Shown here in pieces: positions 17,030-37,259 of a DNA stretch of 43,210 bases; the stretch's first letter is position 1; each line of letters starts with the position of its first letter. The notes beneath the pieces are model-generated. The model was not told the origin of the DNA. It saw only the letters and a list, made by a program, of their open reading frames with translations, and made no database searches. The DNA lies in NCBI GenBank assembly GCA_022563655.1, contig JADFMW010000001.1:1-43210 (forward strand). The letters are read 5' to 3'. Source of the DNA: Pseudomonadota bacterium (GTDB taxonomy: Bacteria > Pseudomonadota > Alphaproteobacteria > JAAXGF01). The translations under genes were made by a program, and so were the position numbers.

Positions 17030-17116
17030 GCCGTATGGGCCCGTCTTCACGCGATGCCGGCGCGGCGGAAGGCCGGGCTTGGGTATAATGGGGGCGATGC
17101 CGAGGGATCTGATGAC

Positions 17117-21437: not shown

Positions 21438-21447
21438 ATGTCGAGGT

Positions 21448-21484
21448 AAAAAGGAAAACCGGCGTTCGCGGTGAGCAGAACGCG
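21448..21484 (-). terminator. Weak terminator or attenuator hairpin after the SBP gene
   Basis: The minus strand reads GCGTTC-(10-nt loop)-GAACGC followed by CGGTTTTCCTTTTT. The stem is short and the loop large. Confidence 0.3.
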
Positions 21485-21520
21485 ATCCCCTTGGAGGGCC
21501 GGGGGGCGGGGGTCTTGCCC

Positions 21521-23494: not shown

Positions 23495-25380
23495 GACGCG
23501 ATCTTGATCTGGTCGGCCGGGCCCGAGACGCGCACCATGTGGCCGCCGCCGAGGTCGAGCAGACTGGCCTTTGCCGAACCGTCAAGCGTGAACGGCGCTG
23601 GCCAGGCGGCCGGGTCCGAGCAGCGGTTGGCGGCCAGTGCACCGAAGTCCAGCCTGCGGGAGGGATCGGGCTCGGGCACCGCCGCCACCAGGGCCTTGGT
23701 GTATGGGTGCACCGGCTTGGTGAACAAATCCTCCTGCCGCGCGATCTCGATCAGCCGACCGGCGCACATCACGGCGATTCGGTCGGCGATATAGTTGACC
23801 ACCGCCAGGTTGTGCGAGATGAAGAGGTATGTCAGGCCGAGCTCGCGCTTCAGGTCCTTGAGCAGGTTCAGTACCTGCGCCTGGATCGAGACGTCGAGCG
23901 CCGAGACCGGCTCGTCGCAGATCAACAGATTCGGGTTCAGCGCGAGCGCGCGGGCGATGCCGATGCGCTGGCGTTGACCGCCCGAGAAGCTGTGCGGGTA
24001 ACGTCGCAGATAGCGCAGGTCGAGACCGACGAAGCGCATCAGCTGCTTGACCATCCAGGCACGCTCGTCGGCCGTGCCGATCCGGTGGATGACGAGTGGC
24101 TCGCTGATGATGTCGAACACGGTCATGCGCGGGTTCAGCGAGCTGTAAGGGTCCTGGAAGATGTACTGAACCTTGCGGCGGTATTCGAGCAGCGCGTCGC
24201 CCTCGAGGCTGAGCACGTCGGTCGCGTGTCCGCTGCCGTTGTACAGCACTTCGCCGGCGTCGGGGACGAGCGCGCGCATGATGATCTTGCTCGTCACCGT
24301 CTTGCCGCAGCCCGATTCGCCAACCAGACCGAGGCACTCGCCGCGCATGATGTCGAAGCTCACGTCGTCGACGGCCAAGTGGGGTTTAGAGTCCCCGCTG
24401 GCGAGCCAGCCGGTCTTGCGGCTGCCGAACGTTTTGCTCACGCCGCGCACGCGCAGCAGCGGGCCCGTCTCGTCGGCTTCCTTTGCAGGCGCCGTCTTGG
24501 GCGCGAGCGCCGTCGCGCTGCCCGGGCTGATTTCACGGATCGGCACCAGGCGCTCGCCGGGCCGCATGTCGAAGCGGGGGACCGCGTGCAGCAGCGCCTT
24601 GAGATAGGGGTGCTCGGGCCGGCGGAAAATGTCGTCGAGCGAGCCGCTTTCCATGACCTTGCCGTTGTACATCACGACGATCTCTTCGGCGACGTTGGCG
24701 ACGATGCCGAGGTCGTGGGTGATGATCAGGATCGCCATCCCGAGCTCGCGCTGGAGGTCAATCATCAACTTGAGGATTTGCGCCTGGATGGTGACGTCGA
24801 GCGCGGTGGTGGGCTCATCCGCGATCAGCAGCGCCGGCCGGCAGATGAGCGCCATCGCGATCATCGCCCGCTGGCGCAGCCCTCCCGACAGCTCGAACGG
24901 GTACGTCTTGAGCGCACCCACCGGGTCGGGAAAGCCGACCAACCGCAACATATCGGCGGTCATCTCGCGGCCGGTCCGGGTGTCGACCTTGAGGTGCAGG
25001 TGCAGCGCCTCGCCCACTTGGTCGCCGATGGTGTGAAGCGGCGACAGCGAGGTCATCGGTTCCTGGAAGATGATCGAAATACGCCCGCCGCGGATCGCCC
25101 GCATCTCGCTGGAGCCGGGGTCTAGCGCAGCGATGTCGACCTCGGTGCCCGGCTTGTCGGGGTCGGCGAACAGGATTTCGCCGCGCGCGAGGCGCGCCGT
25201 TTCGGGCAGTATCCCCATGATGGACTGCGACACGACCGATTTGCCCGACCCGGACTCGCCGACGAGAGCGACGGTGGAGCCTGGGAGGATGCGGAAGGAA
25301 ACCCCGTCGACCGCGGTGATGACGCCTTCCGGAAGGTCGAACTCGACCTTGAGGTCGCGAACGCGGAGCAGTTCGTCCAT
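23491..25380 (-). CDS. ABC transporter ATP-binding protein with two fused ATPase domains (DppD-DppF/YejF-like)
   Basis: Two Walker A motifs (GESGSGKS, GESGCGKT), two signatures (LSGGLRQR, FSGGQRQR) and two Walker B motifs (LLIADEPT, LLICDEPV). Confidence 0.9.
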   Translation of the reverse strand: MDELLRVRDLKVEFDLPEGVITAVDGVSFRILPGSTVALVGESGSGKSVVSQSIMGILPETARLARGEILFADPDKPGTEVDIAALDPGSSEMRAIRGGRISIIFQEPMTSLSPLHTIGDQVGEALHLHLKVDTRTGREMTADMLRLVGFPDPVGALKTYPFELSGGLRQRAMIAMALICRPALLIADEPTTALDVTIQAQILKLMIDLQRELGMAILIITHDLGIVANVAEEIVVMYNGKVMESGSLDDIFRRPEHPYLKALLHAVPRFDMRPGERLVPIREISPGSATALAPKTAPAKEADETGPLLRVRGVSKTFGSRKTGWLASGDSKPHLAVDDVSFDIMRGECLGLVGESGCGKTVTSKIIMRALVPDAGEVLYNGSGHATDVLSLEGDALLEYRRKVQYIFQDPYSSLNPRMTVFDIISEPLVIHRIGTADERAWMVKQLMRFVGLDLRYLRRYPHSFSGGQRQRIGIARALALNPNLLICDEPVSALDVSIQAQVLNLLKDLKRELGLTYLFISHNLAVVNYIADRIAVMCAGRLIEIARQEDLFTKPVHPYTKALVAAVPEPDPSRRLDFGALAANRCSDPAAWPAPFTLDGSAKASLLDLGGGHMVRVSGPADQIKIAS

Positions 25381-25844
25381 TACGCGTTCGCCGCTGATTC
25401 GTCGGAGGCGATTCCGAGGACGGCCAGGTTCTCCAGCGTCGGTGGGCTGAGGACCACGTGGTTGGCGCGCGCTGCGAACAACGCCTGGCGGGTGATGATC
25501 GGAAAGCCGTCGATCGACGAATCAAGCTTCACGGTGCGGCTCGCGCCCTTGAGCTTGAGGTGCATCCACCCTCCATGGCCGTCGCGTCGCGTTGAGTAAT
25601 AGCCGAGCGTCATAGCGTCTAAGTCTCGCCAGCGCAAGACCGCCCCGGCCGGCCCCACCACTCGAATCGCCTCGGTGGAGACCTCGATACGCGTCATGTG
25701 GCGAAAAGCGGTGCGCACCGCGAAGACGAGAAATAATGTGCCAAACGCGCCGAGGATATAGGCCATAACGGGTGCTGTGTGAAAAAACCATAAAGTGCCA
25801 AACAGCGCTATCCCGAGCGCGGCGCGGCCGTAGTCCGCAGCCAT
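25380..25844 (-). CDS. Small membrane protein (two TM helices plus soluble domain; possible bacterial-PH-like topology)
   Basis: 154 aa beginning MAADYGRAALGIALFGTLWFF. Its stop TAA shares one nucleotide with the ATPase ATG (TAATG). The longer track ORF to 26255 is Arg/Pro-rich and implausible. Confidence 0.6.
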   Translation of the reverse strand: MAADYGRAALGIALFGTLWFFHTAPVMAYILGAFGTLFLVFAVRTAFRHMTRIEVSTEAIRVVGPAGAVLRWRDLDAMTLGYYSTRRDGHGGWMHLKLKGASRTVKLDSSIDGFPIITRQALFAARANHVVLSPPTLENLAVLGIASDESAANA

Positions 25845-25870: not shown

Positions 25871-26647
25871 TCACGGCCCGAGGCGCCGTCGCCTTGGCGC
25901 CGCGAAGGCATCCCTGGCGCTCATCCAGCGCGTTGCGGGATGTGCTGCCGTCGCCTCCAGGAACGCGCCGATGAATGCCCACGCCGCCTCGTCGTGGTCG
26001 CGATGGTGGCTCAAGAGGCCTGTGGGCTCGTCGCCGGCAGCGCGCGTCCGCCGCGCGCGCAGGTGCCCGACCGCCAGCGCGAGCGCCTCGTCGACGCCGA
26101 CGAAGCCGCGCGTCGCGCGCCAGTCGATGATATCGACGTGGGCGTTTACTTGGCGCAGGCCAGGGGCGGAGCGGGCGCGCGGGCCGTAGGTGGACAGCCC
26201 CGAGAAGCCGGCGCTGGCCAGACGGCCGACGAGTGCGCTGGCGATGCGGTTCCACGGCGGCACCAGCACGTCAAGCGCGCGCGCGCCGAACAATGCCGTG
26301 AGTCTGCGGCGGCCCGCGGCGAGCTCATCGAGCGCCTCGTCGGCGGAGCGCTCGGGGCCAAGCTCTGCCTTGCGTTTGCCAGGGGGCGCGTGGTTCAGGT
26401 GGGCGTAGCCGTGCTGGAGCACGTCGATATCGTCGCCGGAATCGACGCGGGCGGCGGTTTCGTCTTCGACCATTGCCGGGATCACCGCGAGCGCCAGGGG
26501 CGCCGCCGCCTGGGCCCGTAGGGCGAGCAGGCGATCGAGGGCCGGAATCGGCCGGGCGGAGTCATCGTCGCGCCACCACAAGGTGGCGGTGCGGCCTTCG
26601 CCGGCCCAACGGTCGAGTTCGTCGGTGAGCATGCACCAGTTACTCAT
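25871..26647 (-). CDS. Polysaccharide deacetylase (NodB-homology) family protein
   Basis: An Asp motif (WWRDDD) and a His motif (HGYAHLNH) are in the expected order. The start is at 26647 (overlapping the upstream stop by 8 nt) or 26632. Confidence 0.7.
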   Translation of the reverse strand: MSNWCMLTDELDRWAGEGRTATLWWRDDDSARPIPALDRLLALRAQAAAPLALAVIPAMVEDETAARVDSGDDIDVLQHGYAHLNHAPPGKRKAELGPERSADEALDELAAGRRRLTALFGARALDVLVPPWNRIASALVGRLASAGFSGLSTYGPRARSAPGLRQVNAHVDIIDWRATRGFVGVDEALALAVGHLRARRTRAAGDEPTGLLSHHRDHDEAAWAFIGAFLEATAAHPATRWMSARDAFAAPRRRRLGP

Positions 26648-27800
26648 CTTCGCGTTTCGCCCAAGTGGTGATCATGGCGGCGCTGCGCCCGGCGCCGTCG
26701 ACGGCGACGGCGCGGTGCGGCGGCCGTGGCGCGGCCAGCGCGGCGTCCACAGTGGTTGCGAGCCGCGCCGGCGTGAGGTCGCGCTCGTCGAGGCAACGCA
26801 CCAGCCCGAGCGCCTCGAGCCGTGCCGCCCGCAGGCTTTGCTCGGTCTGCCCGCCCCGCGAGAAGGGAACGATCACGGCTTGGGCGCGAGCCTGTAAGAT
26901 GTTTACGGCGGTATTATAGCCGCCCTGGGAGATCGACACAGCGCAATTCGCCAAGAGATCGGCGAAGTCGGGCCGGGCGCGTTCGACGATGACGCCGTTG
27001 GGGGCTTCGGCGGTGAGGGCCGCGAAGGCCTCGGCCGATAGGTTTTCTCCGGCGAGCAGCCGCCAGTCGAGGTCGCACCCCGATCGCGACAACGGGCGCG
27101 CCTCGAGCGCGGTCCGCAGCACGATCTCGCCAACGGCGCCGCCCCCCGCCGATGCCACCACCTCGTTCCAGCCCGGGGCGCCGGGGCCGCCGCGACGCCC
27201 GGCGGGCTCCGCTACGTAGCCGGTGTAGGAAATCATGTCGGCGATCTCGGCGGCGGCGGGGAAGCTCTCCTCGAAGCGGATTACCTTCGGGTCGCCGTGG
27301 ACCAGCACGGCGTCGAGGTAGCGCCGCGCCCAGGCCGCCGCCTCGGCGGTGCGCTTGGGCGCGCGCGCGGTCAGCACGTCGCGCACCGAAGAGACCACCC
27401 AGGGCCGCGGCGCGGCGGCGCGTGCGGCGGCGAGCAGCGGCAGCAGCTCGAAGCGCAGCTGGCGGCGCCCGAACGGGAACATCTCGACGACCAGCACGTG
27501 CGGTTTGACCCGCGCGAACAGGTCGAGCAGCATGGTGCGGCGGCGATCCAGCCACGCCGCGTCCGGCGCCCGGCCGTCTGCGCAGACAAGGGCGCTGAAA
27601 CTCTCGTCGCGGCTGCGCAGCGGCGGCAGTTGCACCAGCGCCGCGCCGCCCACGTCGAGCCCCGCGACCGGCTCCCCCCCGCTCGCCACCGTCACTTCGA
27701 GGTCGCGGGCGGCGCACGCGCGGGCCAGCGCGACGGCGCGCCTCAAGTGACCGATGCCGAGCAGGTGCTGGACATAGAACAGGACGCGACGGCGCGTCAC
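26640..27800 (-). CDS. Glycosyltransferase, COG4671-like (GT-B fold), paralog 1
   Basis: N-terminal RRVLFYVQHLLGIGHLRR matches the paralog at 30792-32018 (RRILIYSHDTFGLGHLRR). The GTG start at 27800 overlaps the upstream stop (GTGA). The track ORF to 28007 is an extension. Confidence 0.7.
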   Translation of the reverse strand: MTRRRVLFYVQHLLGIGHLRRAVALARACAARDLEVTVASGGEPVAGLDVGGAALVQLPPLRSRDESFSALVCADGRAPDAAWLDRRRTMLLDLFARVKPHVLVVEMFPFGRRQLRFELLPLLAAARAAAPRPWVVSSVRDVLTARAPKRTAEAAAWARRYLDAVLVHGDPKVIRFEESFPAAAEIADMISYTGYVAEPAGRRGGPGAPGWNEVVASAGGGAVGEIVLRTALEARPLSRSGCDLDWRLLAGENLSAEAFAALTAEAPNGVIVERARPDFADLLANCAVSISQGGYNTAVNILQARAQAVIVPFSRGGQTEQSLRAARLEALGLVRCLDERDLTPARLATTVDAALAAPRPPHRAVAVDGAGRSAAMITTWAKREDE

Positions 27801-28387
27801 GATAGCTCGAGCGGCAGGTTCAGCCGTTCGACCGCGGGCGCGCCGTCGGCGGCGAGGGTGAACAGATGGGCGCAATCCCAGGCGAGGGGCGCTGGCAGCG
27901 TGCCGGTCATGTCCCAACCCGTGGCCTGCGCCACGATCGCGCGAATCACGCCCTTGTGGGTGACGGCGACCAGTGGGCGTTTGCGCGCCGCCACTTCTGC
28001 AAGCCACGGCGCGAGGCGCGCCTGCACGTCGCGCGGGCTTTCGCCGCCGTCGGGGCGAAAGTCGAGGCCGCGCGCTTCGTTCTCCGCGATCGCCGCGCCG
28101 AACTCATCGCGCAGCGCCGCCAGGCGGCGCCCTTCCCAGCGGCCCCAGTCCATCTCGGTGAGCCGCGCCTCGATCGCGATGTGCTTGACGCCCATGAGCC
28201 GCGCCGTATCGCGGGCGCGGACCAGCGGGCTCGAGGCCCAGTCGGCGCCGGCGAGCTGGGCGGGCGGCCGCCTGCGGGCGGCGGCGGCGCGGCCGCGCGG
28301 GCTCAGCGGCACGTCGGTCCGCCCCTGGATCCGGCCTTGCTCGGTCCAAGCGGTCGCCGCATGCCGGATGAGCGCGAGCCGCGTCAT
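27797..28387 (-). CDS. Histidine phosphatase (phosphoglycerate-mutase-like) family protein
   Basis: 196 aa beginning MTRLALIRHAATAW (RH catalytic motif) with a later VTHKGVIRA. Its ATG overlaps the upstream GT4 stop (ATGA). Confidence 0.8.
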   Translation of the reverse strand: MTRLALIRHAATAWTEQGRIQGRTDVPLSPRGRAAAARRRPPAQLAGADWASSPLVRARDTARLMGVKHIAIEARLTEMDWGRWEGRRLAALRDEFGAAIAENEARGLDFRPDGGESPRDVQARLAPWLAEVAARKRPLVAVTHKGVIRAIVAQATGWDMTGTLPAPLAWDCAHLFTLAADGAPAVERLNLPLELS

Positions 28388-29532
28388 GCGCCGGCGTGCG
28401 CGAGGGCGAGCGCCCGTTCGAGCGTCGCGCTCGCCGCCGCCAAGCCGTGGCGCTCCTCGACGGATGCGGCCGCCGCGGCGCCGAGCACGGCGCGTAATCG
28501 GCGATCGTCGAGCAGCTGGCGGACCGCCGCGGCGAACGCGCCATCGTCGCCGGCGGGAGTGAGCACGCCGGTCTTGCCCGAGCGTACCACCTCGGCGACG
28601 CCGCGGACGCGCCCGGCGACCACGGGCAGCCCGGCCGCCTGCGCCTCGAGTACGGCCATGCCGTAGGCCTCGTCGACCGCAGGCCAGACAAAGGCGTCGG
28701 CCGCCGCGTAGAACGCCGGCAACGCCTCGGGCGGGCGCGCTCCGGCGTAGACGACCCGCTCGCCACCGAGGGGGCCGAGCGCCGCCTCTACCTCGGCCCG
28801 CGCCGGGCCCGCGCCGACGACGAGCAATCGCCACTCGAGGTCGGTGACGCGCCCGAGGGCGGCGCCGAGCCGGCGATACGAGGCGAGCTTGTCGCCGCGC
28901 CGCATCATGGCGACGGCGAGCAACCACGGCGGCTCCGCGTCGAGACCGAGCTCGGCGGCGATTTTTCCGCGGTGCGCCGCGCGCGCCCTCTGTGCCGCCC
29001 GATACGGCGCAACGTCGAGGAACGGCGGCAGGGAAAGCAAGCGCTCGGGCGCGCGCACCAGAGGGCGCAGACATTCGGCGTCGTCTTCGGTCAGCGCCAG
29101 CACCGCGTCGGCCCGGGCCAGCGCCGCCGCCACGGCGGCGTGGCCGTCAGCCCACGGACCGTTGGCCTGCTTGGGCGCGAACGAGGGCTCGGCCACCAGG
29201 TACGGGATGCCGAGCGCGCGGCCGACCTCGGGGCCGAGCCAGTCGGGCGCCTTGTGGTAAAGGTGATAGGTAAACCACGCAGCCGGACGCTCGTGCTTGG
29301 GCGCCGCGCGGTACCGGCGCACCAGCGCCGCGGCCTCGGCCGCGCCCCGGGCGCGGATCGCCGCTTGCCGCGCGGCGTTGCCCTCGCCCTCGTAGCTGCG
29401 CAGGGTCGAGGCCAGGTCGACCGCGTGGCCCGCCGTTTCCAGCGCGGCCATGATCAGCCCGGCCATGCGGCGGTCGCCCGAGGGAACCGCGTGTGTCGGC
29501 GCCTTGAGCGGAGCGTAGAAGGCGATTCGCAT
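28384..29532 (-). CDS. Glycosyltransferase family 4 (GT-B)
   Basis: 382 aa beginning MRIAFYAPLKAPTHAVPSGD. The C-terminal E-x7-E-like region is PAVDEAYGMAVLEAQAAGLPVVA. Confidence 0.8.
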   Translation of the reverse strand: MRIAFYAPLKAPTHAVPSGDRRMAGLIMAALETAGHAVDLASTLRSYEGEGNAARQAAIRARGAAEAAALVRRYRAAPKHERPAAWFTYHLYHKAPDWLGPEVGRALGIPYLVAEPSFAPKQANGPWADGHAAVAAALARADAVLALTEDDAECLRPLVRAPERLLSLPPFLDVAPYRAAQRARAAHRGKIAAELGLDAEPPWLLAVAMMRRGDKLASYRRLGAALGRVTDLEWRLLVVGAGPARAEVEAALGPLGGERVVYAGARPPEALPAFYAAADAFVWPAVDEAYGMAVLEAQAAGLPVVAGRVRGVAEVVRSGKTGVLTPAGDDGAFAAAVRQLLDDRRLRAVLGAAAAASVEERHGLAAASATLERALALAHAGA

Positions 29533-29553
29533 CGGCGGCCGCCCGATGCCGCT

Positions 29554-30780
29554 TCAGCGCGCGAGGCCGAACTTCGCCGCGAGCTGGCTGCTCCCGCGGC
29601 TCATGGAGAAGGACTCGCGCACCCGCTCCTGGCCGGCTCTTCCGAGGCGCGCGCGCAGCGCCGGGTCGGCGATCAGCGCCGCCAGCGCCGCGCTCAGGGC
29701 GGCGCGGTCGCGCGGCGCCACCAGGCAGCCGGTGACGCCGTCGTCGATCAACTCGGGGATCGCCGACAGCCGGGTCGCCAGTACCGCAAGCCCTTGCGAC
29801 TGCGCTTCCATCAGCACGTTGGGCAGACCGTCGCGGTCGCCATCGTTGGCGACGCGGCTGGCGAGCACGAAGAGGTCGGAGGCGCGGTAATGCTCGAGCA
29901 CCACGTCCTCGGGTTGTGCGCGGAGCCATTGGACGCGGCCGTCGAGGCCGGCCGCGCGGGCTTGGCGCCGGAGCGCCGCGAGCAACGGCCCGTCGCCGAT
30001 ATGAACGAACCGCCAATTGACCTCGCGCGGCAGCGTGGCCAGCGCCGCCAGCAGGTCGTCGTAGCCTTTCTTGGCCACGGCGCGGCCCACCGACAGGATG
30101 GTGACGGGATCGTCGGCGGCAGCGCCGTCGCGCGGTGGGCGCACGCGCTCGGCGGCGGGGAAGCGGCCCGGGTCGAGGCCGTGGTAGGCCAGCTCGACGC
30201 GGCCCGGCGGGGCCAGCTGGGCGAGGTGGTCGCGGCCCGCCGCGGTGCAGGTGACCAACCATCGGCATTCGGCGAGCTTCTCGGCCTTCTCCCAAGTGGG
30301 CGAGGTCCAGATGTCCTTGGCGTGCGCCGAGCAGCTCCAGGGCAGTCCGGTGAGCAGGCTGGTATAGCGCGCGACCGACGCCGGAGTGTGCAGGAAGTGA
30401 GCGTGCAGGTGGTTCACCCCCGGCGGCAGCTCTCGCGCCAGCACCAGCGCCTGGCCGAAGCGGCGCACCCGGTTGGGGCTGAGGTCGCGGGCCAGGTCGC
30501 GCAGCCAAGCCCACCGCGCCGCCCGATAGCGAGGATTTCGCCTCGCCGCCCGCCAGCCGCGCCACACCCGTAGCGGCTCGCGCCACAGGTACTCCGGCAG
30601 GTATGTCACGGGGGCTTTGATGCGGGCATGGATGGGATGGACGTGGGGGTCCGTCGGGTGGCGCAGCGAAACGATGGCGATGTCGAGCCCACGCTCTTCG
30701 AGGGCGAGGATTTCCTGGGCGATGAAGGTCTCGGAGAGCCGGGGGTAGCCCTTGAGGATGAAGGCGACCGTGCCGAGCAC
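29554..30780 (-). CDS. Glycosyltransferase family 4 (WcaL-like)
   Basis: N-terminus VLGTVAFILKGYPRLSETFIAQEI is typical of this subgroup. C-terminal region GLPNVLMEAQSQGLAVLAT. The GTG start at 30780 lies 11 nt after the upstream stop. The track ORF to 32184 is an out-of-frame read-through. Confidence 0.75.
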   Translation of the reverse strand: MLGTVAFILKGYPRLSETFIAQEILALEERGLDIAIVSLRHPTDPHVHPIHARIKAPVTYLPEYLWREPLRVWRGWRAARRNPRYRAARWAWLRDLARDLSPNRVRRFGQALVLARELPPGVNHLHAHFLHTPASVARYTSLLTGLPWSCSAHAKDIWTSPTWEKAEKLAECRWLVTCTAAGRDHLAQLAPPGRVELAYHGLDPGRFPAAERVRPPRDGAAADDPVTILSVGRAVAKKGYDDLLAALATLPREVNWRFVHIGDGPLLAALRRQARAAGLDGRVQWLRAQPEDVVLEHYRASDLFVLASRVANDGDRDGLPNVLMEAQSQGLAVLATRLSAIPELIDDGVTGCLVAPRDRAALSAALAALIADPALRARLGRAGQERVRESFSMSRGSSQLAAKFGLAR

Positions 30781-30791
30781 AGCCTCGTCCC

Positions 30792-32018
30792 CTACCGCGA
30801 TCGGCCGATCCGCGCGACGCCGCCGGCGCGGTTGCCCTCGGCGAGCCGCATGGCGACCAGCCGATTGAGGTTGACGAAGCCATCCAGGAGACCGGGTATG
30901 ACGACCTCCGAGGGCAGCCGCTGCTGCGGCAGGCGCCTGAGCGCCGTCGCCATGGCGGCCGGGTCGCGCCGGCCGGTGTCGTCCAGCATTGCGACCAGCC
31001 CGAGGTCGCTGAAGCGCGAGGCGCGGATGTACTGCTCCATGCGCGGCACCCGGCGCGGCACGATGATCGCGCGCTTGTCGAACGACAGGATCTCGCAGAA
31101 CGTGTTGTAGCCGCCCATGGCGACGACGCCGGCGGCGCGCGCCATCAAGCTCTCCAGGTAGGCGTCGAAGACGACGGCCGTAACGCGCGGCAGCTTGTTC
31201 ACGCGCTCTTGGAACTGGGCCTGCAGCTCGGGCTGCATGAACGGTCCGAAGACCAGAAGCGCATTCCACGGCGGTGGCGAGCTGCATTCGTAAGCACTCA
31301 GCACCCAGTCGATCAACGCTTCGCCATCGCCGCCACCCCCGCCGGTAACCAGAACGTAAGGTTCCTTGATTCTCTCGATCACTCCGGAAAGCGGTGTGCT
31401 GGCAGGCACCGTCCGCGGCAGGTAGCCCGTGAACGCGACCTTCTTGCGCACGTCTGCCGGCAGGCCGATGTCGGCGATCGGGTCGTAAATTTGCGGCAAG
31501 CCGTAGATCCAGATGTCGTCGTAAAGATGGCGCAGCGCGGGCAGCACGTTCTTGCGCCGCCACTCGGGCCGCAGCAGGCTGGGTTCGTCGAGCACGTCGC
31601 GCAGGCCGAGCACGATGCGCGTGCCGCGCTGCTTGAGCATCTCCAGGGTCTCCTTGATCTCGCCGCGCAGGCCCAGCGGCTCCTTGTCGACGATGAAGAT
31701 GTCCGGGCCGAAGATGCCGGCGGTGTGCAGGATGATCGATGCCCGCATGGCGAGCGTCTGCTCGATGTCGATGTGCAGGTTGAGCGTGGTGTACTCGCCG
31801 TTGCGCAGCTTGATGACGCCGGGGATGCGGACGAAGTCGACCCGCGCGCGGAAGTCGAAGCTGCCGATGATCGGCGAGCCCGAAAGTATCAGCACCGAAA
31901 GCTGCTTGTGCTCCTCGACCAGGGCGTGGGCAATGGCGCGGCAGCGGCGCAGGTGGCCGAGACCGAAGGTGTCGTGGCTGTAGATCAGGATCCTTCGTCC
32001 CGCGGCAGGTTTGTTCAT
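30792..32018 (-). CDS. Glycosyltransferase, COG4671-like (GT-B fold), paralog 2; first gene of the operon
   Basis: Start at the ATG at 32018 (MNKPAAGRRILIYSHDTFGLGHLRR) with an upstream GAAGGGGG Shine-Dalgarno sequence. 408 aa. Confidence 0.75.
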   Translation of the reverse strand: MNKPAAGRRILIYSHDTFGLGHLRRCRAIAHALVEEHKQLSVLILSGSPIIGSFDFRARVDFVRIPGVIKLRNGEYTTLNLHIDIEQTLAMRASIILHTAGIFGPDIFIVDKEPLGLRGEIKETLEMLKQRGTRIVLGLRDVLDEPSLLRPEWRRKNVLPALRHLYDDIWIYGLPQIYDPIADIGLPADVRKKVAFTGYLPRTVPASTPLSGVIERIKEPYVLVTGGGGGDGEALIDWVLSAYECSSPPPWNALLVFGPFMQPELQAQFQERVNKLPRVTAVVFDAYLESLMARAAGVVAMGGYNTFCEILSFDKRAIIVPRRVPRMEQYIRASRFSDLGLVAMLDDTGRRDPAAMATALRRLPQQRLPSEVVIPGLLDGFVNLNRLVAMRLAEGNRAGGVARIGRSR

Positions 32019-32307
32019 CGCTTGGGCCCCCTTCGCTGTGCCACACCGGCCGACGCATCCGCCGGGCGCGGTGCTGCGAGCCGGCCAGTCTGACCGGTCG
32101 CGCGCATCTGCGCAATTCGTTTGAATGTTTGCCGACCTTGGCACGGCGCGCAAAGACGGAAGCATCGATTGCGCGAACACACAAGTTTGTGCGCTGGCGA
32201 CCGAGGCAAAAGCCATTTACGCTTGCGCGAAGCTAGGCTAACGTTGCGTGCGACGCGTGCAAGGGAAACAGCGGGCATCGTCACCGATTCGGGAACGGGC
32301 AAGAGTC

Positions 32308-34971
32308 ATGGAGCAAAGTATATATAAATTCGTTCTTCGATATAGTAAAACACAGCAGATTTTTGTGTTGCTGGTCACAGTATGTTCTCTGCCATTTTAT
32401 TACGTATCGTTGGACATACCAAAAAAAATAGTTAATGGCGCGTTGGAGGGAGGGCCCGAGGATTTTCCCAAGCCGCTAGAGTTCTTTGGCATCAAGGTCG
32501 TTGATCTCGATCAACTTGTGCTGTTGTTCGCTCTGTGCGGCGTGTTCCTCGTGCTCGTCTGCATCAACGGCGGCTTCAAGTTCTACATCAACGTCTACAA
32601 GGGCCTGTTGGGCGAGCGCATGCTGCGCCGCCTGCGCTACCAGCTCTACAGCCGCATCCTGCGCTTTCCCTTGCCGCACTTTCGCAAGGTCTCGCAAGGC
32701 GAGCTGATCCCGATGATCACCCAAGAGGTCGAGCCGCTCGGCGGCTTTATCGGCGACGCCTTCGCGCTGCCCATGCACCAGGGCGGGCTGTTGCTGACCG
32801 CCCTGGTGTTCATTATGGTGCAAGATTGGCGGATGGGCGTTGCCGCGATCGCGTTCTATCCCGTGCAGGGCTACATCATTCCCAAGCTGCAGCGGCGGGT
32901 GAACCTGCTCGGCAAGCAGCGGGTGAAGGAGGTGCGCAAGCTGTCGGAGCGCATCGGCGAGACGGTTTCCGGCGCCCAGGAGATCCACGCCTACGACACC
33001 TCGCAATACGAGCTCGCTGATTTCGGCCACCGCCTGGGGCGCATCTTCGACATCCGCTATCAGATCTACCGCAAGAAATTCTTCATCAAGTTCCTCAACA
33101 ACTTCATGAATCAGCTGACGCCGTTTTTCTTCTTTGCGATCGGCGGCTACCTGGTGATCAAGGGGGAACTTTCGCTCGGCTCGCTGGTGGCCGTGCTGGC
33201 GGCGTACAAGGATCTCGCGCCGCCATGGAAAGAGCTTCTGAACTACTACCAGATGAAGGAAGACTCGCGCATCAAGTACGACTCGGTCGTCTCACAGTTC
33301 GCGCCGCCCGGCATGCGCGATGAAGCGCAGCTCGACGCCGAGGTCGACGCGGCGGAGCCGCTGAGCGGAGAGTTGGTGGTGGGCAATCTCACGCTCAGCG
33401 AGGACGACGTCAGGGTGGTCGACGGGGTGTCGTTCTCCCTGGGCGTCAATGAGCGCCTCGCCATCGTCGGCGCCGGCGGCAGCGGCAAGGAGGAGTTGAC
33501 GCTTCTGCTGGCGCGCCTGCTCGACCCCACGGGCGGTCGCATCACCATTGGCGGCAAGGACATCAAGACGCTGCCCGAGGCGGTTACCGGCCGCCGCATC
33601 GCCTATGTCGGCGCCAACGCGCAGTTGTTTTCGGCGAGCATCGGCGACAACCTGTTCTACGGCCTCAAGCACCGTCCGTCGCAGGAGGCCGGGTACGATG
33701 CTAAAACGGCGGCGCTGCGTCGCGATGCATTGGCCGAGAGCGCGCGCGCCGGCAACACCACGCGCGACATTTTCGCCGACTGGATCGACTACGCCGCCGC
33801 CGGCGCCGACTCGCCCTCGGAGCTCACCGCGGCGGCGATCCGCGCGCTCACGGTCGCCGAGATGGTCGACGACGTTTATCAGTTCGGCCTGCGCGGCACG
33901 ATCGACCCGTCGGCGCACGCCGAACTCGCCACGCGTATTCTGCGTGCGCGGACAGCGCTGCGAGAGCGCCTTGCCGATCCCGATCTCGCCGGCCTTGTCG
34001 AGTTTTTTGACAACGAGAAATACAACACCAACGCCACGGTGGCCGAAAACCTGCTGTTCGGCACTCCCGTCGACGACACCTTCGACATGGAACGGTTGGC
34101 CGAGAACGCTTACGTGATGTCGGTGCTCGACCGGTGCGGCCTGACCGAAGACCTGCTCGCCATGGGCCACGAGATCGCCGGCACCATGGTCGAGATGTTC
34201 TCGGACCTGCCGGCCGAGCACGAGTTCTTCGAGCAGTTCAGCTTCATCCGCGCCGACGATCTGCCCGACTACAAGGAGCTGATCGGCCGGGTCGATAAGG
34301 ATAAGCTCGAAACGCTGAGCGAGGACGAACGGCACAAGCTTTTGTCGCTGCCGTTCAAGCTGGTCCCCGCGCGCCACGCGCTGGGGCTCGTCGACGACGT
34401 CATGCAGCCGCGCCTGCTCGAAGCGCGCAAGACCTTCGCCCGCGATCTGCCGGACAATTTATCGTCGGCAGTGGAGTTCTTCGCTCCCGACCGATACAAC
34501 GCCGCCTCGACGTTGCAGGACAACATATTGTTCGGCAAGCTTGCCTACGGTAAGGCGCAGGCGGCGACGCGCATCGGGGCGCTGATCTCGGAGGTGATCA
34601 GCGAGCTTGACCTGTATACGGCGGTGGTCGCAGCGGGGCTTGAATTCCAGGTTGGCATCAGCGGCTCGCGGCTGTCGGACGCCCAGCGGCAGAAGCTGGC
34701 GATCGCGCGCGCCGTACTGAAGCGCCCCGATATCTTGGTCGTCTCGGAAGCCACCGCGAGGCTCGACGGCGCCACCCAGACGAAGGTCACGAAAAATTTG
34801 CTTACCGAATTCGAAGGACGCGGGCTGATCTGGGCGTTGCACCGCCCAAGCCTTGCCAATCAGTTCGAGCGGGTTCTCGTGATGCGTGGCGGGAAGGTGG
34901 TCGAGCACGGTAAGTTCTCGGAGCTCGACCAGCCCGACACGCATTTCAAGATGCTGATCGCGGCGGAATAG
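32308..34971 (+). CDS. ABC exporter-type fusion (transmembrane domain plus atypical, expanded nucleotide-binding domain)
   Basis: 887 aa from the ATG at 32308 (MEQSIYKFVLRY). The N-terminal half is a multi-helix ABC_membrane-like region. In the NBD, Walker A is GAGGSGKE (33469-33492), the signature is LSDAQ, Walker B is ILVVSE, and the H-loop is ALHRPS. Confidence 0.8.
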   Translation: MEQSIYKFVLRYSKTQQIFVLLVTVCSLPFYYVSLDIPKKIVNGALEGGPEDFPKPLEFFGIKVVDLDQLVLLFALCGVFLVLVCINGGFKFYINVYKGLLGERMLRRLRYQLYSRILRFPLPHFRKVSQGELIPMITQEVEPLGGFIGDAFALPMHQGGLLLTALVFIMVQDWRMGVAAIAFYPVQGYIIPKLQRRVNLLGKQRVKEVRKLSERIGETVSGAQEIHAYDTSQYELADFGHRLGRIFDIRYQIYRKKFFIKFLNNFMNQLTPFFFFAIGGYLVIKGELSLGSLVAVLAAYKDLAPPWKELLNYYQMKEDSRIKYDSVVSQFAPPGMRDEAQLDAEVDAAEPLSGELVVGNLTLSEDDVRVVDGVSFSLGVNERLAIVGAGGSGKEELTLLLARLLDPTGGRITIGGKDIKTLPEAVTGRRIAYVGANAQLFSASIGDNLFYGLKHRPSQEAGYDAKTAALRRDALAESARAGNTTRDIFADWIDYAAAGADSPSELTAAAIRALTVAEMVDDVYQFGLRGTIDPSAHAELATRILRARTALRERLADPDLAGLVEFFDNEKYNTNATVAENLLFGTPVDDTFDMERLAENAYVMSVLDRCGLTEDLLAMGHEIAGTMVEMFSDLPAEHEFFEQFSFIRADDLPDYKELIGRVDKDKLETLSEDERHKLLSLPFKLVPARHALGLVDDVMQPRLLEARKTFARDLPDNLSSAVEFFAPDRYNAASTLQDNILFGKLAYGKAQAATRIGALISEVISELDLYTAVVAAGLEFQVGISGSRLSDAQRQKLAIARAVLKRPDILVVSEATARLDGATQTKVTKNLLTEFEGRGLIWALHRPSLANQFERVLVMRGGKVVEHGKFSELDQPDTHFKMLIAAE

Positions 34972-34995
34972 GCCGCCGGACGGGGAGAAAGACCC

Positions 34996-35454
34996 ATGAG
35001 CTTGCAGGAAGACGTTGAACGGCTGCGCAGCATCCCGTTGTTCGCCAAGATCGAGCCGAGCAAGCTGAAGCTGCTCGCCTTTACCGCTCAGAGGGTCACG
35101 TTCAACTCCGGCGAAAATCTGTTCCGCCAGGGCGACGTCGGCGACGCCGCCTACATCATTACCAGCGGCACCGCCGACGTGGTGGTTGCCACTCCGAACG
35201 GGCCCCTCACCGTCGCGCAGGTGGGCACCAACGACTTCGTCGGCGAGATCGCGATCCTCTGCGACGTACCGCGCACCGCCACCGTCACGGCGACCAGCAC
35301 GTTGATGACGATGCGCATATCGAAGGAGCTGTTCTTCGAGCTGGTTTCTCAGTTTCCCGAGATCTCGGTGGAGATCATGCGCGTGCTGGCGCATCGCCTC
35401 GACGTGACAACGCGCCAACTGCAAGACGCGCTGAGCAAGCTCAAGGCCGGGTAA
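34996..35454 (+). CDS. Stand-alone cyclic-nucleotide-binding (CAP-effector) domain protein
   Basis: 152 aa with CNB hallmarks LFRQGDVGDAAYIITSGTADV and FVGEIAILCDVPRTATVTA. There is no DNA-binding or other output domain. It starts 24 nt after the ABC gene. Confidence 0.85.
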   Translation: MSLQEDVERLRSIPLFAKIEPSKLKLLAFTAQRVTFNSGENLFRQGDVGDAAYIITSGTADVVVATPNGPLTVAQVGTNDFVGEIAILCDVPRTATVTATSTLMTMRISKELFFELVSQFPEISVEIMRVLAHRLDVTTRQLQDALSKLKAG

Positions 35455-35474
35455 AGCGGACGGGCGAGCGGCTC

Positions 35475-35969
35475 GTGAGTCGGCTTGACAGCTTCATCCG
35501 CCGCCTCTGCGCCCAGCGCGACTGCCTCGTGCTGGGCGCCAGGCTGATCGCCGATGTGCCCGGCCCGGTGCTCGAGTTCGGCCTCGGCAACGGGCGTACG
35601 TACGACCACCTGCGCGGCCTCCTCCCCGAGCGCGAGATCTTTGTATTCGACAGGCGCATCGCCGCCCATCCCGACTGCATCCCAGATCCCGAGCACATGC
35701 TGCTCGGGGATCTGCACGACACCCTGCCGCGAGCGAGCGAGCGCATTCACGAGCCGGCGGCGCTCGCCCACTTCGATATCGGCCTCGTTGACGCCGCGGC
35801 AAACGCGGCGCTGTGCGCCTTCGTGGCGGGTTGGGCGGCGCCGTTGATGGCGCGCGGCGGGGTCGTCGCCTCCGACCAGGAGCTGGCCGCGCCCGGCTGG
35901 CTTGCGCTGCCGCTGCCCGGGGGCGTCGCCGAAGGCCGCTACTTCATGTACCGGGTGACCGGCGCGTAG
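35475..35969 (+). CDS. Hypothetical protein, possible small SAM-methyltransferase fold
   Basis: 164 aa with a GTG start. VLEFGLGNGRTYDHL resembles a glycine-rich motif I. The functional call is weak. Confidence 0.45.
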   Translation: MSRLDSFIRRLCAQRDCLVLGARLIADVPGPVLEFGLGNGRTYDHLRGLLPEREIFVFDRRIAAHPDCIPDPEHMLLGDLHDTLPRASERIHEPAALAHFDIGLVDAAANAALCAFVAGWAAPLMARGGVVASDQELAAPGWLALPLPGGVAEGRYFMYRVTGA

Positions 35970-36208: not shown

Positions 36209-36216
36209 AGGGCCCG

Positions 36217-37251: not shown

Positions 37252-37259
37252 GCGCGCCG

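What the first reader, a model, noticed from the sequence alone, without database searches (positions are those of the whole stretch)
25871..35969. Divergent glycosyltransferase operon plus atypical ABC, CNB protein and MTase-fold gene: candidate uncharacterised cNMP-linked glycan synthesis and export module
**Seen in the sequence**
- Six minus-strand genes run in order: COG4671-like GT, WcaL-like GT4, GT4, histidine phosphatase, second COG4671-like GT, NodB deacetylase.
- They are joined by 4-8 nt overlaps or gaps of 11-21 nt (ATGA at 28384-28387, GTGA at 27797-27800, overlap at 26640-26647).
- Across a 289-bp control region they are transcribed divergently from the atypical ABC exporter, a stand-alone cNMP-binding protein (24-nt gap) and a small MTase-fold protein (20-nt gap).
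- I see no Wzx/Wzy, Wzm/Wzt, Wza/Wzc, synthase-type or initiating phosphoglycosyl-transferase genes here.

**Inference**
- The cluster may build and export a short glycan or glycoconjugate, including a phosphatase step and a de-N-acetylation step.
- Export would go through a single fused ABC protein whose partner senses cAMP or cGMP.
- I cannot match this gene set to a characterised pathway from memory.
Basis: inference. Interest (0 to 1): 0.68.

Follow-up and report, generated by a model that had tools for sequence, protein, structure and literature searches.

The report
Cyclic-nucleotide-linked sugar-chain synthesis and transport locus
This is the core of a roughly 20-kb gene cluster, conserved across many Alpha- and Betaproteobacteria and apparently uncharacterised, that joins sugar-chain-building enzymes to an unusual ABC transporter with a cAMP/cGMP-sensing partner, an oligosaccharide-type uptake system and a nucleotide cyclase.

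Summary
The only label without a family hit, "NodB deacetylase", was confirmed by motifs and by a confident AlphaFold model that matches CE4 deacetylases.

The locus is larger than reported. The minus-strand operon continues into a small membrane protein and a four-gene Opp/Dpp-type ABC importer. The importer's binding protein is closest to oligosaccharide binders. Beyond it lie an MBL hydrolase, a methyltransferase and a 6TM adenylate cyclase.

Comparative genomics supports a functional unit:
- The cNMP-binding (CNB) gene follows the ABC gene in 73 of 73 metagenome loci with enough sequence.
- The first glycosyltransferase lies divergently upstream in 42 of 49.
- ABC and CNB are fused in 9 of 9 longer family members tested.
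- Betaproteobacterial versions lack ABC/CNB, but about half carry a cyclase or a cNMP-gated channel instead.

The ABC protein has a duplicated helical-subdomain insert and family-wide non-canonical Walker A, Walker B and Q-loop residues.

No characterised pathway matched; it is not the S. meliloti msbA2 operon. The most likely function is carrier-independent cytoplasmic assembly of a small, de-N-acetylated, O-methylated oligosaccharide, with cNMP-gated export and re-uptake. The product and the direction of transport remain inferred.

The parts
15280..16167 (+). MBL-fold hydrolase (probable peripheral member)
   Evidence: PF12706, E 1.8e-20. A 42%-identical orthologue sits inside the S. meliloti version of the cluster.
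16193..17029 (+). Methyltransf_24 SAM methyltransferase
   Evidence: PF13578, E 2.5e-11. Non-orthologous TylF/Methyltransf_24 genes occupy the same neighbourhood in L170 and L175.
17054..18466 (+). Membrane-bound class III nucleotide cyclase; roughly six N-terminal hydrophobic segments are apparent by eye, followed by the catalytic domain
   Evidence: PF00211, E 3.7e-18. Convergent on the importer, 16 nt from its stop. Orthologues: 72% identity in the same position in L175, and 48% over 82% of the length, divergent from GT-A, in L168.
18483..19658 (-). OppC-type importer permease
   Evidence: PF12911 and PF00528. NCBIfam Opp/Nik/Gsi permeases, all below cut-off. Start confirmed.
19658..20701 (-). 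OppB-type importer permease
   Evidence: NCBIfam Opp4B 229 bits, below cut-off. Conserved in relatives.
20702..21520 (.). Atypical ~800-bp spacer inside the importer operon, with an 18-bp x6 perfect tandem repeat at 21329-21436
   Evidence: Relatives have only about 2-30 bp between these genes.
21521..23494 (-). Periplasmic SBP_bac_5 binding protein (657 aa, signal peptide), oligosaccharide-type
   Evidence: PF00496, E 4e-55. Nearest solved relatives are 5ipw (9e-88), the pectin-oligosaccharide binder SPH1118 (8e-67) and an alpha-galactoside binder (1.5e-30).
23491..25380 (-). Fused double ATPase of the importer (GsiA/YejF-like)
   Evidence: Two ABC_tran domains plus oligo_HPY. GsiA 582 bits against a cut-off of 1077. 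ATGA overlap with the SBP gene.
25380..25844 (-). Small membrane protein (an N-terminal hydrophobic stretch read by eye as two TM helices, plus a soluble domain), function unknown
   Evidence: No family hit. Conserved between deacetylase and importer in 24 of 25 full-length metagenome loci. TAATG overlap with the ATPase gene.
25871..26647 (-). Cytoplasmic CE4/NodB-fold deacetylase
   Evidence: Invariant DDD, H-x3-H, PPWNR, D-x-x-D-W and HH motifs. AlphaFold pLDDT 93.9; top Foldseek PDB hits are CE4 enzymes. Relatives are named polysaccharide deacetylase.
26640..27800 (-). GT-B: MurG/GT1-like glycosyltransferase, paralogue of GT-A
   Evidence: PF04101, 31.5 bits. 25-27% identity to GT-A.
27797..28387 (-). 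Histidine phosphatase (branch 1)
   Evidence: PF00300, E 1e-39. All NCBIfam hits are below cut-off. Absent from several relatives.
28384..29532 (-). GT4 glycosyltransferase b
   Evidence: PF13692 and PF00534.
29554..30780 (-). GT4 glycosyltransferase a (EpsE/WcaL-like, below cut-offs)
   Evidence: PF00534, E 3.6e-33. NF041876 153 bits against 400.
30792..32018 (-). GT-A: very conserved MurG/GT1-like glycosyltransferase, first gene of the operon
   Evidence: PF04101, 32.5 bits. 65-80% identity across Alpha- and Betaproteobacteria.
32019..32307 (.). 289-bp divergent intergenic region
   Evidence: No promoter, terminator or inverted-repeat signal above chance.
32308..34971 (+). Type-I-exporter-fold ABC half-transporter with a ~290-aa duplicated helical-subdomain insert and non-canonical ATP-site motifs
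   Evidence: Motif census. Internal duplication: hhalign probability 96%. AlphaFold model and Foldseek match to Sav1866, MsbA and TmrAB. The insert defines a family of 644 representatives.
34996..35454 (+). Stand-alone cyclic-nucleotide-binding protein (no DNA-binding domain found)
   Evidence: PF00027. Phosphate-binding cassette conserved, with Arg in 116 of 116 homologues. Always follows the ABC gene. Fused to the ABC in other family members.
35475..35969 (+). Methyltransf_17 small SAM methyltransferase
   Evidence: PF12692, E 4e-52. PDB 3iht at 5e-36 and a weak match to the sugar O-MTase CalS11. In Ruegeria TM1040 and L170 it lies next to the GT operon without ABC/CNB.

Best explanation
The finding is the centre of a conserved locus of about 20.7 kb and 18 genes (window 15280-35969). 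The locus makes and moves a small glycan under cyclic-nucleotide control.

Shown:
- The gene content and tight operon structure.
- Conservation of the block across Rhodospirillales-type Alphaproteobacteria, Rhizobiaceae, roseobacters and Burkholderiales.
- An obligate ABC-CNB pairing, with fusion of the two in some lineages.
- A CE4 fold for the deacetylase.
- An oligosaccharide-type binding protein in the importer.
- A conserved adenylate cyclase neighbour.

Inferred mechanism:
1. Four soluble GT-B glycosyltransferases assemble a short oligosaccharide or glycoside in the cytoplasm, without an undecaprenyl-phosphate primer, flippase or polymerase.
2. One step uses a phosphorylated acceptor that the co-translated histidine phosphatase then dephosphorylates. 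This follows the logic of sucrose-phosphate, glucosylglycerate and MshA-type pathways.
3. The cytoplasmic CE4 enzyme removes an N-acetyl group, and small SAM methyltransferases O-methylate the sugar.
4. The MsbA/Sav1866-fold ABC dimer carries the product across the inner membrane.
5. The CNB protein, loaded with cAMP or cGMP from the neighbouring 6TM cyclase, docks on the enlarged nucleotide-binding domain and gates that step.
6. The Opp/Dpp-type importer, co-transcribed with the GTs, takes the glycan or a fragment of it back up.
For: - Operon structure with 1-8-nt overlaps from GT-A through to the importer.
- Synteny: 44 of 51 alpha loci have ABC plus CNB, and the importer is present in 31 of 39 alpha and 12 of 14 beta loci.
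- From the ABC side: CNB in 73 of 73, GT-A in 42 of 49, MT17 in 51 of 66, full block in 24 of 25.
- Rearranged but complete sets occur in R. etli p42e and S. meliloti pSymB.
- ABC-CNB fusions in 9 of 9 long family members.
- The CNB phosphate-binding cassette is under selection, with Arg in 116 of 116.
- The cyclase is orthologous in L168 (next to GT-A) and in L175 (same position). Other cyclases or cNMP-gated channels lie next to GT-A in 8 of 15 beta loci.
- The deacetylase has a CE4 fold and no signal peptide.
- The SBP is closest to pectin-oligosaccharide and alpha-galactoside binders.
- A distant GT28-GT4-GT4 module on an Escherichia plasmid has a canonical ABC exporter and an AlgE-type outer-membrane porin, which argues that the ABC in this module is ancestrally the product's exporter.
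- Methyltransferases recur: MT17, TylF/MT24 and FkbM.
- No carrier-lipid pathway genes were found among the window ORFs scanned.
Against: - No product has been observed.
- The ABC lacks the Walker A Ser/Thr (replaced by Asp/Glu in 43 of 49), the Walker B Asp (Asn/Ser in 45 of 49) and usually the Q-loop Gln (Tyr/Phe in 39 of 49). Ordinary ATP-driven pumping is therefore not assured.
- Burkholderiales and Ruegeria versions have the GTs and importer without this ABC/CNB. Export by this protein is therefore not intrinsic to the pathway.
- An importer inside a biosynthetic operon could equally mean the substrate comes from outside.
- The phosphatase, GT4b and the deacetylase are missing from some versions.
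- Cyclases are numerous in these genomes, and the rhizobial cyclase is not orthologous to the window's.
Confidence: 0.45

Rival explanations
1. Glycolipid pathway. The MurG/MGD-like and GT4 enzymes glycosylate a membrane lipid such as diacylglycerol or a phospholipid head group. The deacetylase creates an amino-sugar lipid, and the MsbA-fold ABC flips it to the outer leaflet under cNMP control.
For: - The ABC's best family and fold matches are lipid flippases and exporters (MsbA 219.9 bits; Foldseek).
- GT28-type and GT4 enzymes make MGDG/DGDG-type lipids (established knowledge).
- There are weak GT4 hits to glycolipid synthases (NF053787 and NF049988).
Against: - All those hits are far below cut-off.
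- An oligosaccharide-type soluble-ligand importer is co-transcribed.
- The histidine phosphatase and small sugar-type MTases fit soluble intermediates better.
- No acyltransferase or lipid-synthesis gene is conserved in the block.
Confidence: 0.2
2. Uptake and remodelling route. The importer brings in an external oligosaccharide or glycopeptide, for example plant-derived or cell-wall-derived. The GTs, phosphatase, deacetylase and MTases modify it in the cytoplasm. The ABC/CNB pair has a regulatory or secondary role.
For: - The importer is the most constant partner of the GTs, including in lineages without ABC/CNB.
- The SBP resembles binders of pectin fragments and alpha-galactosides.
- S. meliloti has a polysaccharide lyase directly upstream of the importer.
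- Opp-family transporters recycle muropeptides in Rhizobiales (paper listed).
Against: - No glycoside hydrolase or kinase typical of catabolism is conserved.
- Four Leloir-type GTs are unusual for salvage.
- L168 has the GT block and cyclase with no importer.
- The distant Escherichia module is clearly secretory.
Confidence: 0.15
3. An ordinary surface polysaccharide, LPS or capsule locus whose priming transferase, flippase or polymerase are encoded elsewhere. The cNMP genes would be incidental neighbours.
For: GT4 and CE4 genes are common in such loci. The best NCBIfam hit for GT4a is an EPS enzyme. The rhizobial versions sit near a nucleotide-sugar dehydrogenase.
Against: - No Wzx/Wzy, Wzm/Wzt, Wza/Wzc, synthase or priming transferase was found among the scanned window ORFs or in any annotated relative.
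- GT-A is 65-80% identical across two proteobacterial classes, unlike strain-variable surface-glycan GTs.
- The cNMP components recur in non-orthologous forms and as fusions.
Confidence: 0.1

Closest known systems
Cyclic beta-1,2-glucan export by NdvA/ChvA/Cgt (type I ABC exporter)
   Same: A homodimeric TMD-NBD ABC of the Sav1866/MsbA fold moves a cytoplasmically made, carrier-lipid-independent glycan to the periplasm in Alphaproteobacteria. The ABC here hits the glucan-exporter models (NF010178 at E 4e-50; 7zo8).
   Different: Those hits are far below cut-off. NdvA has canonical ATP-site motifs, no ~290-aa insert and no CNB partner. Its glucan is made by one giant synthase, not four small GTs, and there is no linked importer.
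Sinorhizobium meliloti msbA2 operon (SMb21188-SMb21191)
   Same: Glycosyltransferases are co-transcribed with an MsbA-like ABC thought to export an unknown polysaccharide (PMC3687685, PMC12239276).
   Different: It is a different locus. msbA2 lies at about 938 kb on pSymB, whereas the homologue of this cluster lies at 837 kb. The msbA2 operon has an acyltransferase and no CNB, importer or MurG-like GTs.
Two-step glycoside pathways (GT plus dedicated phosphatase, sometimes plus deacetylase): MshA/MshA2/MshB, sucrose-phosphate synthase/phosphatase, GpgS/GpgP
   Same: A GT4 enzyme is translationally coupled to a phosphatase, with a de-N-acetylase in the same operon. GT4b's second- and third-best NCBIfam hits are MshA and BshA. 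GpgP is a histidine phosphatase (established knowledge).
   Different: All scores are far below family cut-offs. The deacetylase here is CE4, not LmbE. There are four GTs rather than one. The phosphatase is absent in some versions.
Nod-factor pathway (NodC/NodB/NodS with NodIJ export)
   Same: Cytoplasmic assembly of a short oligosaccharide, NodB-type de-N-acetylation, methylation and ABC export, with no carrier lipid.
   Different: No NodC (GT2) or NodA was found among the ORFs scanned. NodIJ is an ABC-2 system. The deacetylase here is too divergent to hit the Pfam model.
Cyclic-nucleotide-binding accessory proteins of cyanobacterial bacteriocin ABC exporters (TIGR03896) and second-messenger gating of polysaccharide secretion by c-di-GMP (BcsA, PelD, Alg44)
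   Same: These are precedents for a nucleotide-second-messenger receptor beside or within a secretion machine. The CNB protein weakly hits TIGR03896 (E 4.5e-8).
   Different: The TIGR03896 score is 32.8 bits against a cut-off of 161. The cargo there is peptide. The known glycan systems use c-di-GMP and PilZ, GIL or I-site receptors, not a PKA/PKG-type CNB domain.
GT28-GT4-GT4-ABC module on Escherichia plasmid NZ_AP025748.1
   Same: Homologous GT triad (35%, 33% and 35% identity) followed by a TMD-NBD ABC exporter.
   Different: That ABC is 604 aa with canonical Walker A, Walker B and LSGGQ motifs. Its partners are two APH-type kinases, an AlgE-type porin and a sugar dehydrogenase. It has no CNB, importer, phosphatase or deacetylase, and it is also uncharacterised.

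Membership tests
CE4 / NodB-fold polysaccharide deacetylase | Five catalytic motifs (Asp-Asp; His-x-x-x-His metal ligands; Arg-Pro motif; Asp-x-x-Asp-Trp; Leu-x-His) | tested here: met
   W-R-D27-D28-D29, H79-G-x-x-H83, P130-P-W-N-R134, D172-x-x-D-W176 and H214-H215 are invariant in 33-35 homologues.
CE4 / NodB-fold polysaccharide deacetylase | Deformed (beta/alpha) barrel fold | tested here: met
   AlphaFold pLDDT 93.9. The top 40 Foldseek PDB hits are CE4 or related deacetylases and CE4-fold domains, with E 8.5e-8 to 2.4e-4 and TM 0.39-0.66.
CE4 / NodB-fold polysaccharide deacetylase | Passes the Pfam PF01522 model | tested here: not met
   The window protein has no hit. Only 7 of 35 relatives hit weakly (best 1.7e-3), and 15 of 35 hit DUF2334. 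It is a divergent subfamily.
ABC type I (Sav1866/MsbA-fold) exporter | ABC_membrane TMD fused to an ABC_tran NBD, with the exporter fold | tested here: met
   PF00664 at E 2e-26 and PF00005. Foldseek matches Sav1866, MsbA, TmrAB and TM287/288 with probability 1.0.
ABC type I (Sav1866/MsbA-fold) exporter | Canonical Walker A GxxGxGK[ST], Q-loop Gln, LSGGQ, Walker B hhhhDE and H-loop His | tested here: not met
   The family has GxxGSGK[D/E], Q-loop Tyr/Phe, LS-A-A-Q and hhhh[N/S]E. The H-loop His is present in 25 of 49. A ~290-aa insert lies between the Q-loop and the signature motif.
MsbA / NdvA / HepA equivalogs | NCBIfam curated cut-off | tested here: not met
   MsbA 219.9 against 602; HepA 188.6 against 725; glucan exporter 170.8 against 733.
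Cyclic-nucleotide-binding domain (PKA/PKG/CAP type) | PF00027 match and phosphate-binding cassette with the conserved Glu and Arg | tested here: met
   66.2 bits against a cut-off of 27.5. In GE-IAIL-CDVP-RTATV, Arg is present in 116 of 116 and Glu or Asp in 116 of 116. Actual ligand binding was not tested.
CRP/FNR transcription factors | C-terminal helix-turn-helix DNA-binding domain | tested here: not met
   The protein is 152 aa with only the CNB domain, and no HTH family hit. The 'Crp/Fnr regulator' annotation in S. meliloti looks like a misnomer.
   PF04101 at 32.5 and 31.5 bits against a cut-off of 22. TIGR00661 scores only 36.9 against 195.9. COG membership itself cannot be tested with these libraries.
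GT4 glycosyltransferases | Glycos_transf_1 / Glyco_trans_1_4 C-terminal domain | tested here: met
   E 3.6e-33 and 2e-28. No equivalog cut-off is reached, so donor and acceptor remain unknown.
Histidine phosphatase superfamily, branch 1 | PF00300 and the N-terminal Arg-His catalytic motif | tested here: met
   136.7 bits. 'LIRHAAT' at residues 6-12 and a later 'THKG' are visible in the sequence. Alpha-ribazole phosphatase scores 113 against 163, so it is not a member of that equivalog.
Wzx/Wzy-, ABC-2 (Wzm/Wzt, KpsMT)- or synthase-dependent polysaccharide pathways | Priming phosphoglycosyl-transferase plus flippase/polymerase, ABC-2 permease or processive GT2 synthase | tested here: not met
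   None was found among the larger window ORFs scanned or in the annotated relatives.
Opp/Dpp/Nik (PepT) ABC importers | SBP_bac_5, two BPD_transp_1 permeases and oligo_HPY ATPases | tested here: met
   No substrate-specific equivalog cut-off is reached. The nearest solved SBPs bind oligosaccharides.
S. meliloti msbA2 operon | Same locus and gene set (SMb21188-91) | tested here: not met
   The homologue maps to pSymB 837,168-838,301 and msbA2 to about 938 kb. The gene content differs.

The most novel reading that the evidence does not exclude
The ABC-CNB pair is not an ordinary pump. It would be a cAMP/cGMP-gated release device with a re-wired ATP site: the acidic residue has moved from Walker B to Walker A, and the helical subdomain is triplicated. 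It would discharge a methylated amino-oligosaccharide as a diffusible signal or protective solute. The co-transcribed oligosaccharide importer would then sense or recapture that molecule. This would be a second-messenger-gated glycan release-and-reuptake loop shared by rhizobia, Azospirillum-type Rhodospirillales and related bacteria.
Probability: 0.12. Interest if true: 0.85.

Novelty: new variant of a known kind. Interest (0 to 1): 0.7.

Why it matters
Post-translational control of bacterial glycan secretion is known almost only for c-di-GMP. A PKA/PKG-type cAMP/cGMP receptor that is obligately paired with, or fused to, an ABC transporter would add a second messenger class to that picture.

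It would also assign a role to some of the many orphan adenylate cyclases of Alphaproteobacteria.

The ABC family itself has 644 representatives at 50% identity. It is a natural experiment in ATP-site rewiring and domain triplication.

The locus occurs in tractable, agriculturally relevant bacteria: Rhizobium etli and R. leguminosarum chromids, Sinorhizobium pSymB, Azospirillum and Ruegeria. Its product could therefore be an unrecognised factor in plant or algal association, and it can be tested directly by genetics and glycomics.

Tried and rejected
- **Literature.** Searches for COG4671, DUF3095 and PF12692/Methyltransf_17 found nothing. Searches combining cNMP, ABC and glycosyltransferase terms, and p42e terms, found no description of this locus.
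- **Clr/cAMP regulon of S. meliloti.** The regulated polysaccharide cluster there (nodP2-SMb21248) has a different, Wzx/ExoP-type content and is not this locus.
- **msbA2 operon.** Rejected by map position and gene content. My first guess at the 1021 coordinates (870-915 kb) was empty.
- **Sequence-only identification of the deacetylase.** Pfam, NCBIfam, phmmer and a 35-sequence profile against the PDB all failed. Only structure prediction resolved it.
- **Regulatory signals.** Scans for promoters, terminators and inverted repeats in and around the 289-bp divergent region gave nothing above chance. Rfam found no riboswitch in the window.
- **Cyclase orthology with rhizobia.** Only the catalytic core matches (27-31% identity, 31-36% coverage). 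The rhizobial cyclases are therefore analogous neighbours, not orthologues.
- **MT24 orthology.** The window's Methyltransf_24 protein does not match the TylF genes of L170 or L175.
- **Substrate assignment.** No NCBIfam equivalog cut-off was reached for any GT, the phosphatase or the importer.
- **TRAP transporter.** The transporter just right of the MTase (36118-39124) is not conserved with the cluster, with 0 of 160 loci. I excluded it.

Full report

Yes.

The minus strand carries, in transcription order:
- GT-A (30792-32018)
- GT4a (29554-30780), after an 11-nt gap
- GT4b (28384-29532), after a 21-nt gap
- a histidine phosphatase (27797-28387), with an ATGA overlap
- GT-B (26640-27800), with a GTGA overlap
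- the deacetylase (25871-26647), with an 8-nt overlap

Across 289 bp, the plus strand carries the ABC gene (32308-34971), the CNB gene (34996-35454, 24-nt gap) and the small methyltransferase (35475-35969, 20-nt gap).

Pfam supports eight of the nine labels above its gathering scores. GT-A and GT-B are true paralogues. No NCBIfam equivalog cut-off is reached by any protein, so 'WcaL-like' is only a loose resemblance.

**2. The one unsupported label, 'NodB deacetylase'.**

The window protein has no Pfam, NCBIfam or PDB sequence match, even as a 35-sequence profile. Three lines of evidence still support the label:
- Its family keeps the five CE4 motifs invariant: DDD, H-x3-H, PPWNR, D-x-x-D-W and HH.
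- Some relatives hit DUF2334 and Polysacc_deac_1 weakly, and NCBI names homologues 'polysaccharide deacetylase'.
- An AlphaFold model with pLDDT 93.9 finds CE4 enzymes (peptidoglycan, chitin and xylan deacetylases, and ArnD) almost exclusively among its top 40 PDB neighbours.

The label stands, as a divergent subfamily. It has no signal peptide, which suggests a cytoplasmic location.

**3. The locus is bigger than the finding.**

The minus-strand operon does not end at 25871. After a 26-nt gap comes a conserved small membrane protein (25380-25844). It is followed by a fused double ATPase (TAATG overlap), an SBP_bac_5 binding protein (ATGA overlap) and two permeases (1-nt overlap). Together these form a complete Opp/Dpp-type importer reaching 18483.

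Convergent on it, and tightly spaced on the plus strand, are an MBL-fold hydrolase (15280-16167), a Methyltransf_24 enzyme (16193-17029) and a class III cyclase with about six N-terminal hydrophobic segments by eye (17054-18466).

The TRAP transporter to the right of the methyltransferase is not conserved with the cluster (0 of 160 loci).

**4.

GT-A is unusually conserved, at 65-80% identity across Alpha- and Betaproteobacteria.

In 80 GT-A-centred genome loci, analysed by tblastn:
- ABC plus CNB lie divergently upstream in 44 of 51 alphaproteobacterial loci that have enough sequence.
- They are present in 0 of 15 betaproteobacterial loci.
- The importer follows the GTs in 31 of 39 alpha and 12 of 14 beta loci.

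The reciprocal scan used 80 ABC-centred metagenome loci:
- CNB lies immediately downstream in 73 of 73.
- GT-A is divergent upstream in 42 of 49; most exceptions are rearrangements that still carry GT4a.
- MT17 is present in 51 of 66.
- The GT-plus-importer block is present in 24 of 25.

Rearranged versions exist on annotated replicons:
- R. etli CFN42 p42e carries the importer, GT-A, GT4a, GT-B, ABC and CNB co-directionally, with a cyclase, a sugar dehydrogenase and MT17 nearby.
- S. meliloti pSymB-type replicons add a GT4-deacetylase pair, the MBL orthologue, a polysaccharide lyase and an FkbM methyltransferase.
- Ruegeria TM1040 carries the importer and GT-A through to the deacetylase plus MT17, without ABC/CNB.

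Conservation through such different gene orders argues strongly for a functional unit. The phosphatase, GT4b and the deacetylase are dispensable in some lineages.

**5. The ABC-CNB pair.**

The ABC has the Sav1866/MsbA exporter fold. Its nucleotide-binding domain is atypical across the whole family (49 sequences):

| Motif | Canonical | This family |
|---|---|---|
| Walker A | GxxGxGK[S/T] | GxxGSGK[D/E] in 43 of 49 |
| Q-loop | Gln | Tyr/Phe in 39 of 49 |
| Signature | LSGGQ | LS-A-A-Q |
| Walker B | hhhhDE | hhhh[N/S]E in 45 of 49 |
| H-loop | His | His in only 25 of 49 |

These residues are themselves conserved among closer relatives. This looks like a re-wired site rather than a decaying one. 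Whether it still hydrolyses ATP is unknown.

About 290 residues are inserted between the Q-loop and the signature motif. The insert repeats the post-Q-loop segment (SIGDNLFYG / TVAENLLFG / TLQDNILFG). hhalign gives 96% probability (E 2e-9) for the second against the third copy.

This insert marks a family of 644 representatives at 50% identity, always at the same position. Seventeen of the listed members are 1026-1206 aa long. All nine that I scanned carry a C-terminal cNMP_binding domain fused to the ABC, and two also carry a GGDEF domain.

The CNB protein has no detectable DNA-binding domain. It resembles PKG/PKA CNB domains most closely. It keeps a canonical phosphate-binding cassette, GE-IAIL-CDVP-RTATV, with Arg in 116 of 116 homologues. 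The Arg-Thr-Ala form is typical of PKG sites but does not decide between cGMP and cAMP (my knowledge). The window cyclase has the Lys...Thr substrate-specifying pair of class IIIb adenylate cyclases (read from the sequence, interpreted from established knowledge).

**6. The cNMP link extends beyond ABC/CNB.**

The window's cyclase has two orthologues in related loci:
- 72% identity in the same convergent position in L175.
- 48% identity over 82% of the length in L168, where it lies divergent from GT-A and there is no importer.

In Burkholderiales-type loci that lack ABC/CNB, 8 of 15 carry, just upstream of GT-A, a different cyclase (one with a ferredoxin domain) and/or an MloK1-type cNMP-gated channel with a C39-TPR protein. 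Rhizobial versions have yet another cyclase beside the importer.

Cyclases are abundant in these genomes, so any single adjacency is weak evidence. The recurrence in non-orthologous forms is not.

**7. What does it do?**

The scanned ORFs include no priming transferase, flippase, polymerase, ABC-2 system or synthase, and neither do the relatives. All the enzymes appear to lack signal peptides and TM segments (by eye, untested). Assembly is therefore most likely cytoplasmic and independent of a carrier lipid. Several observations shape the model:
- A GT4 gene is translationally coupled to a phosphatase, which recalls two-step glycoside pathways.
- The CE4 enzyme implies an N-acetyl-hexosamine converted to the free amine.
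- The recurring MT17, TylF/MT24 and FkbM genes imply O-methylation. MT17 weakly resembles the sugar O-methyltransferase CalS11.
- The importer's binding protein is closest to a pectin-oligosaccharide binder (SPH1118; PMC9314435, PMC7055323) and an alpha-galactoside binder, not to peptide binders.
- A distant GT28-GT4-GT4 module on an Escherichia plasmid is followed by a canonical ABC exporter and an AlgE-type porin. This suggests the ABC in this module began as the exporter of the GTs' product.

I therefore favour, at about 0.45, synthesis of a small, modified oligosaccharide with cNMP-gated export and importer-mediated recapture.

The rivals are a glycolipid flipped by the MsbA-like ABC (0.2), modification of an imported glycan (0.15) and a conventional surface polysaccharide with missing parts elsewhere (0.1). 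Mere coincidence of neighbours is excluded by the synteny.

**8. Comparison with what is known.**

The closest functional analogues are:
- NdvA/ChvA-type glucan export
- the S. meliloti msbA2 operon
- Nod-factor assembly
- GT-plus-phosphatase glycoside pathways
- c-di-GMP-gated polysaccharide secretion

None is a match. All equivalog scores are far below cut-off. The S. meliloti homologue lies at 837 kb on pSymB, 100 kb from msbA2. The Clr-regulated pSymB cluster is a different, Wzx/ExoP-type locus. Nine literature searches found no description of this gene set. The library does not cover subscription-only papers, so a prior description cannot be fully excluded.

**9. Verdict.**

The feature is a genuine, widespread, apparently uncharacterised locus built from known families. 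Its distinctive elements are:
- a re-wired, domain-triplicated ABC transporter obligately paired with a cNMP receptor
- an oligosaccharide importer embedded in a biosynthetic operon
- recurrent cyclase neighbours

I rate it a new variant of a known kind, with interest 0.7.

Noticed in passing
window 20702-21520 (repeat at 21329-21436): An ~800-bp non-coding spacer interrupts the importer operon between the binding-protein and permease genes. It contains a perfect 18-bp x6 tandem repeat (CCTGAGAAGAGCGGTTAA). Relatives have only about 2-30 bp there.
   Followed up: partly
window 9298-12143: CysD-like (PAPS_reduct family) and fused CysN/CysC (NodP/NodQ-like) sulfate-activation genes lie about 3 kb left of the extended cluster. 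A link to sulfation of the glycan was not examined.
   Followed up: no
window 14473-15183: An OmpR-type response regulator gene lies immediately upstream of the MBL-MTase-cyclase unit. It may regulate the locus. Its conservation was not checked.
   Followed up: no
window 40627-42299: A phage-type integrase (Arm-DNA-bind_3 plus Phage_integrase) is followed by an int-alpA RNA motif (Rfam RF02996, 38.8 bits) near the right end, which suggests an integrated element. The window's only tRNA (Thr, 4591-4667) is far from it.
   Followed up: partly
window 26000-31000 versus 31000-35000: G+C is 72-78% over GT-B, the phosphatase, GT4b and GT4a, but 59-65% over GT-A and the ABC gene, although these belong to one locus. 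The cause is unexplained. It may reflect amino-acid constraint on the highly conserved GT-A and ABC.
   Followed up: no
P0431, P0467 (representative library): Some members of the ABC family carry both a cNMP-binding and a GGDEF domain at the C-terminus. This hints at cross-talk between cNMP and c-di-GMP signalling in this transporter family.
   Followed up: partly
L018 5536-9285; L015 7087-9396; also L009, L023, L026: Burkholderiales-type loci have a conserved trio upstream of GT-A: a cyclase with an N-terminal 2Fe-2S ferredoxin domain, a Peptidase_C39_2-TPR protein, and an MloK1-like cNMP-gated ion channel.
   Followed up: partly
L085 (Azospirillum oryzae plasmid NZ_CP054622.1, 3549-4793); Sneathiella loci L014, L043, L062, L067: A GT-A orthologue of 66-68% identity occurs alone, without any other cluster gene within 10 kb. 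This enzyme may therefore also work outside the module.
   Followed up: no
L086 21364-21828 (S. meliloti CP090105.1): The stand-alone CNB orthologue is annotated as 'Crp/Fnr family transcriptional regulator' although the family lacks a DNA-binding domain. The adjacent ABC gene (about 18955-21204) has no entry in the distributed gene table.
   Followed up: partly
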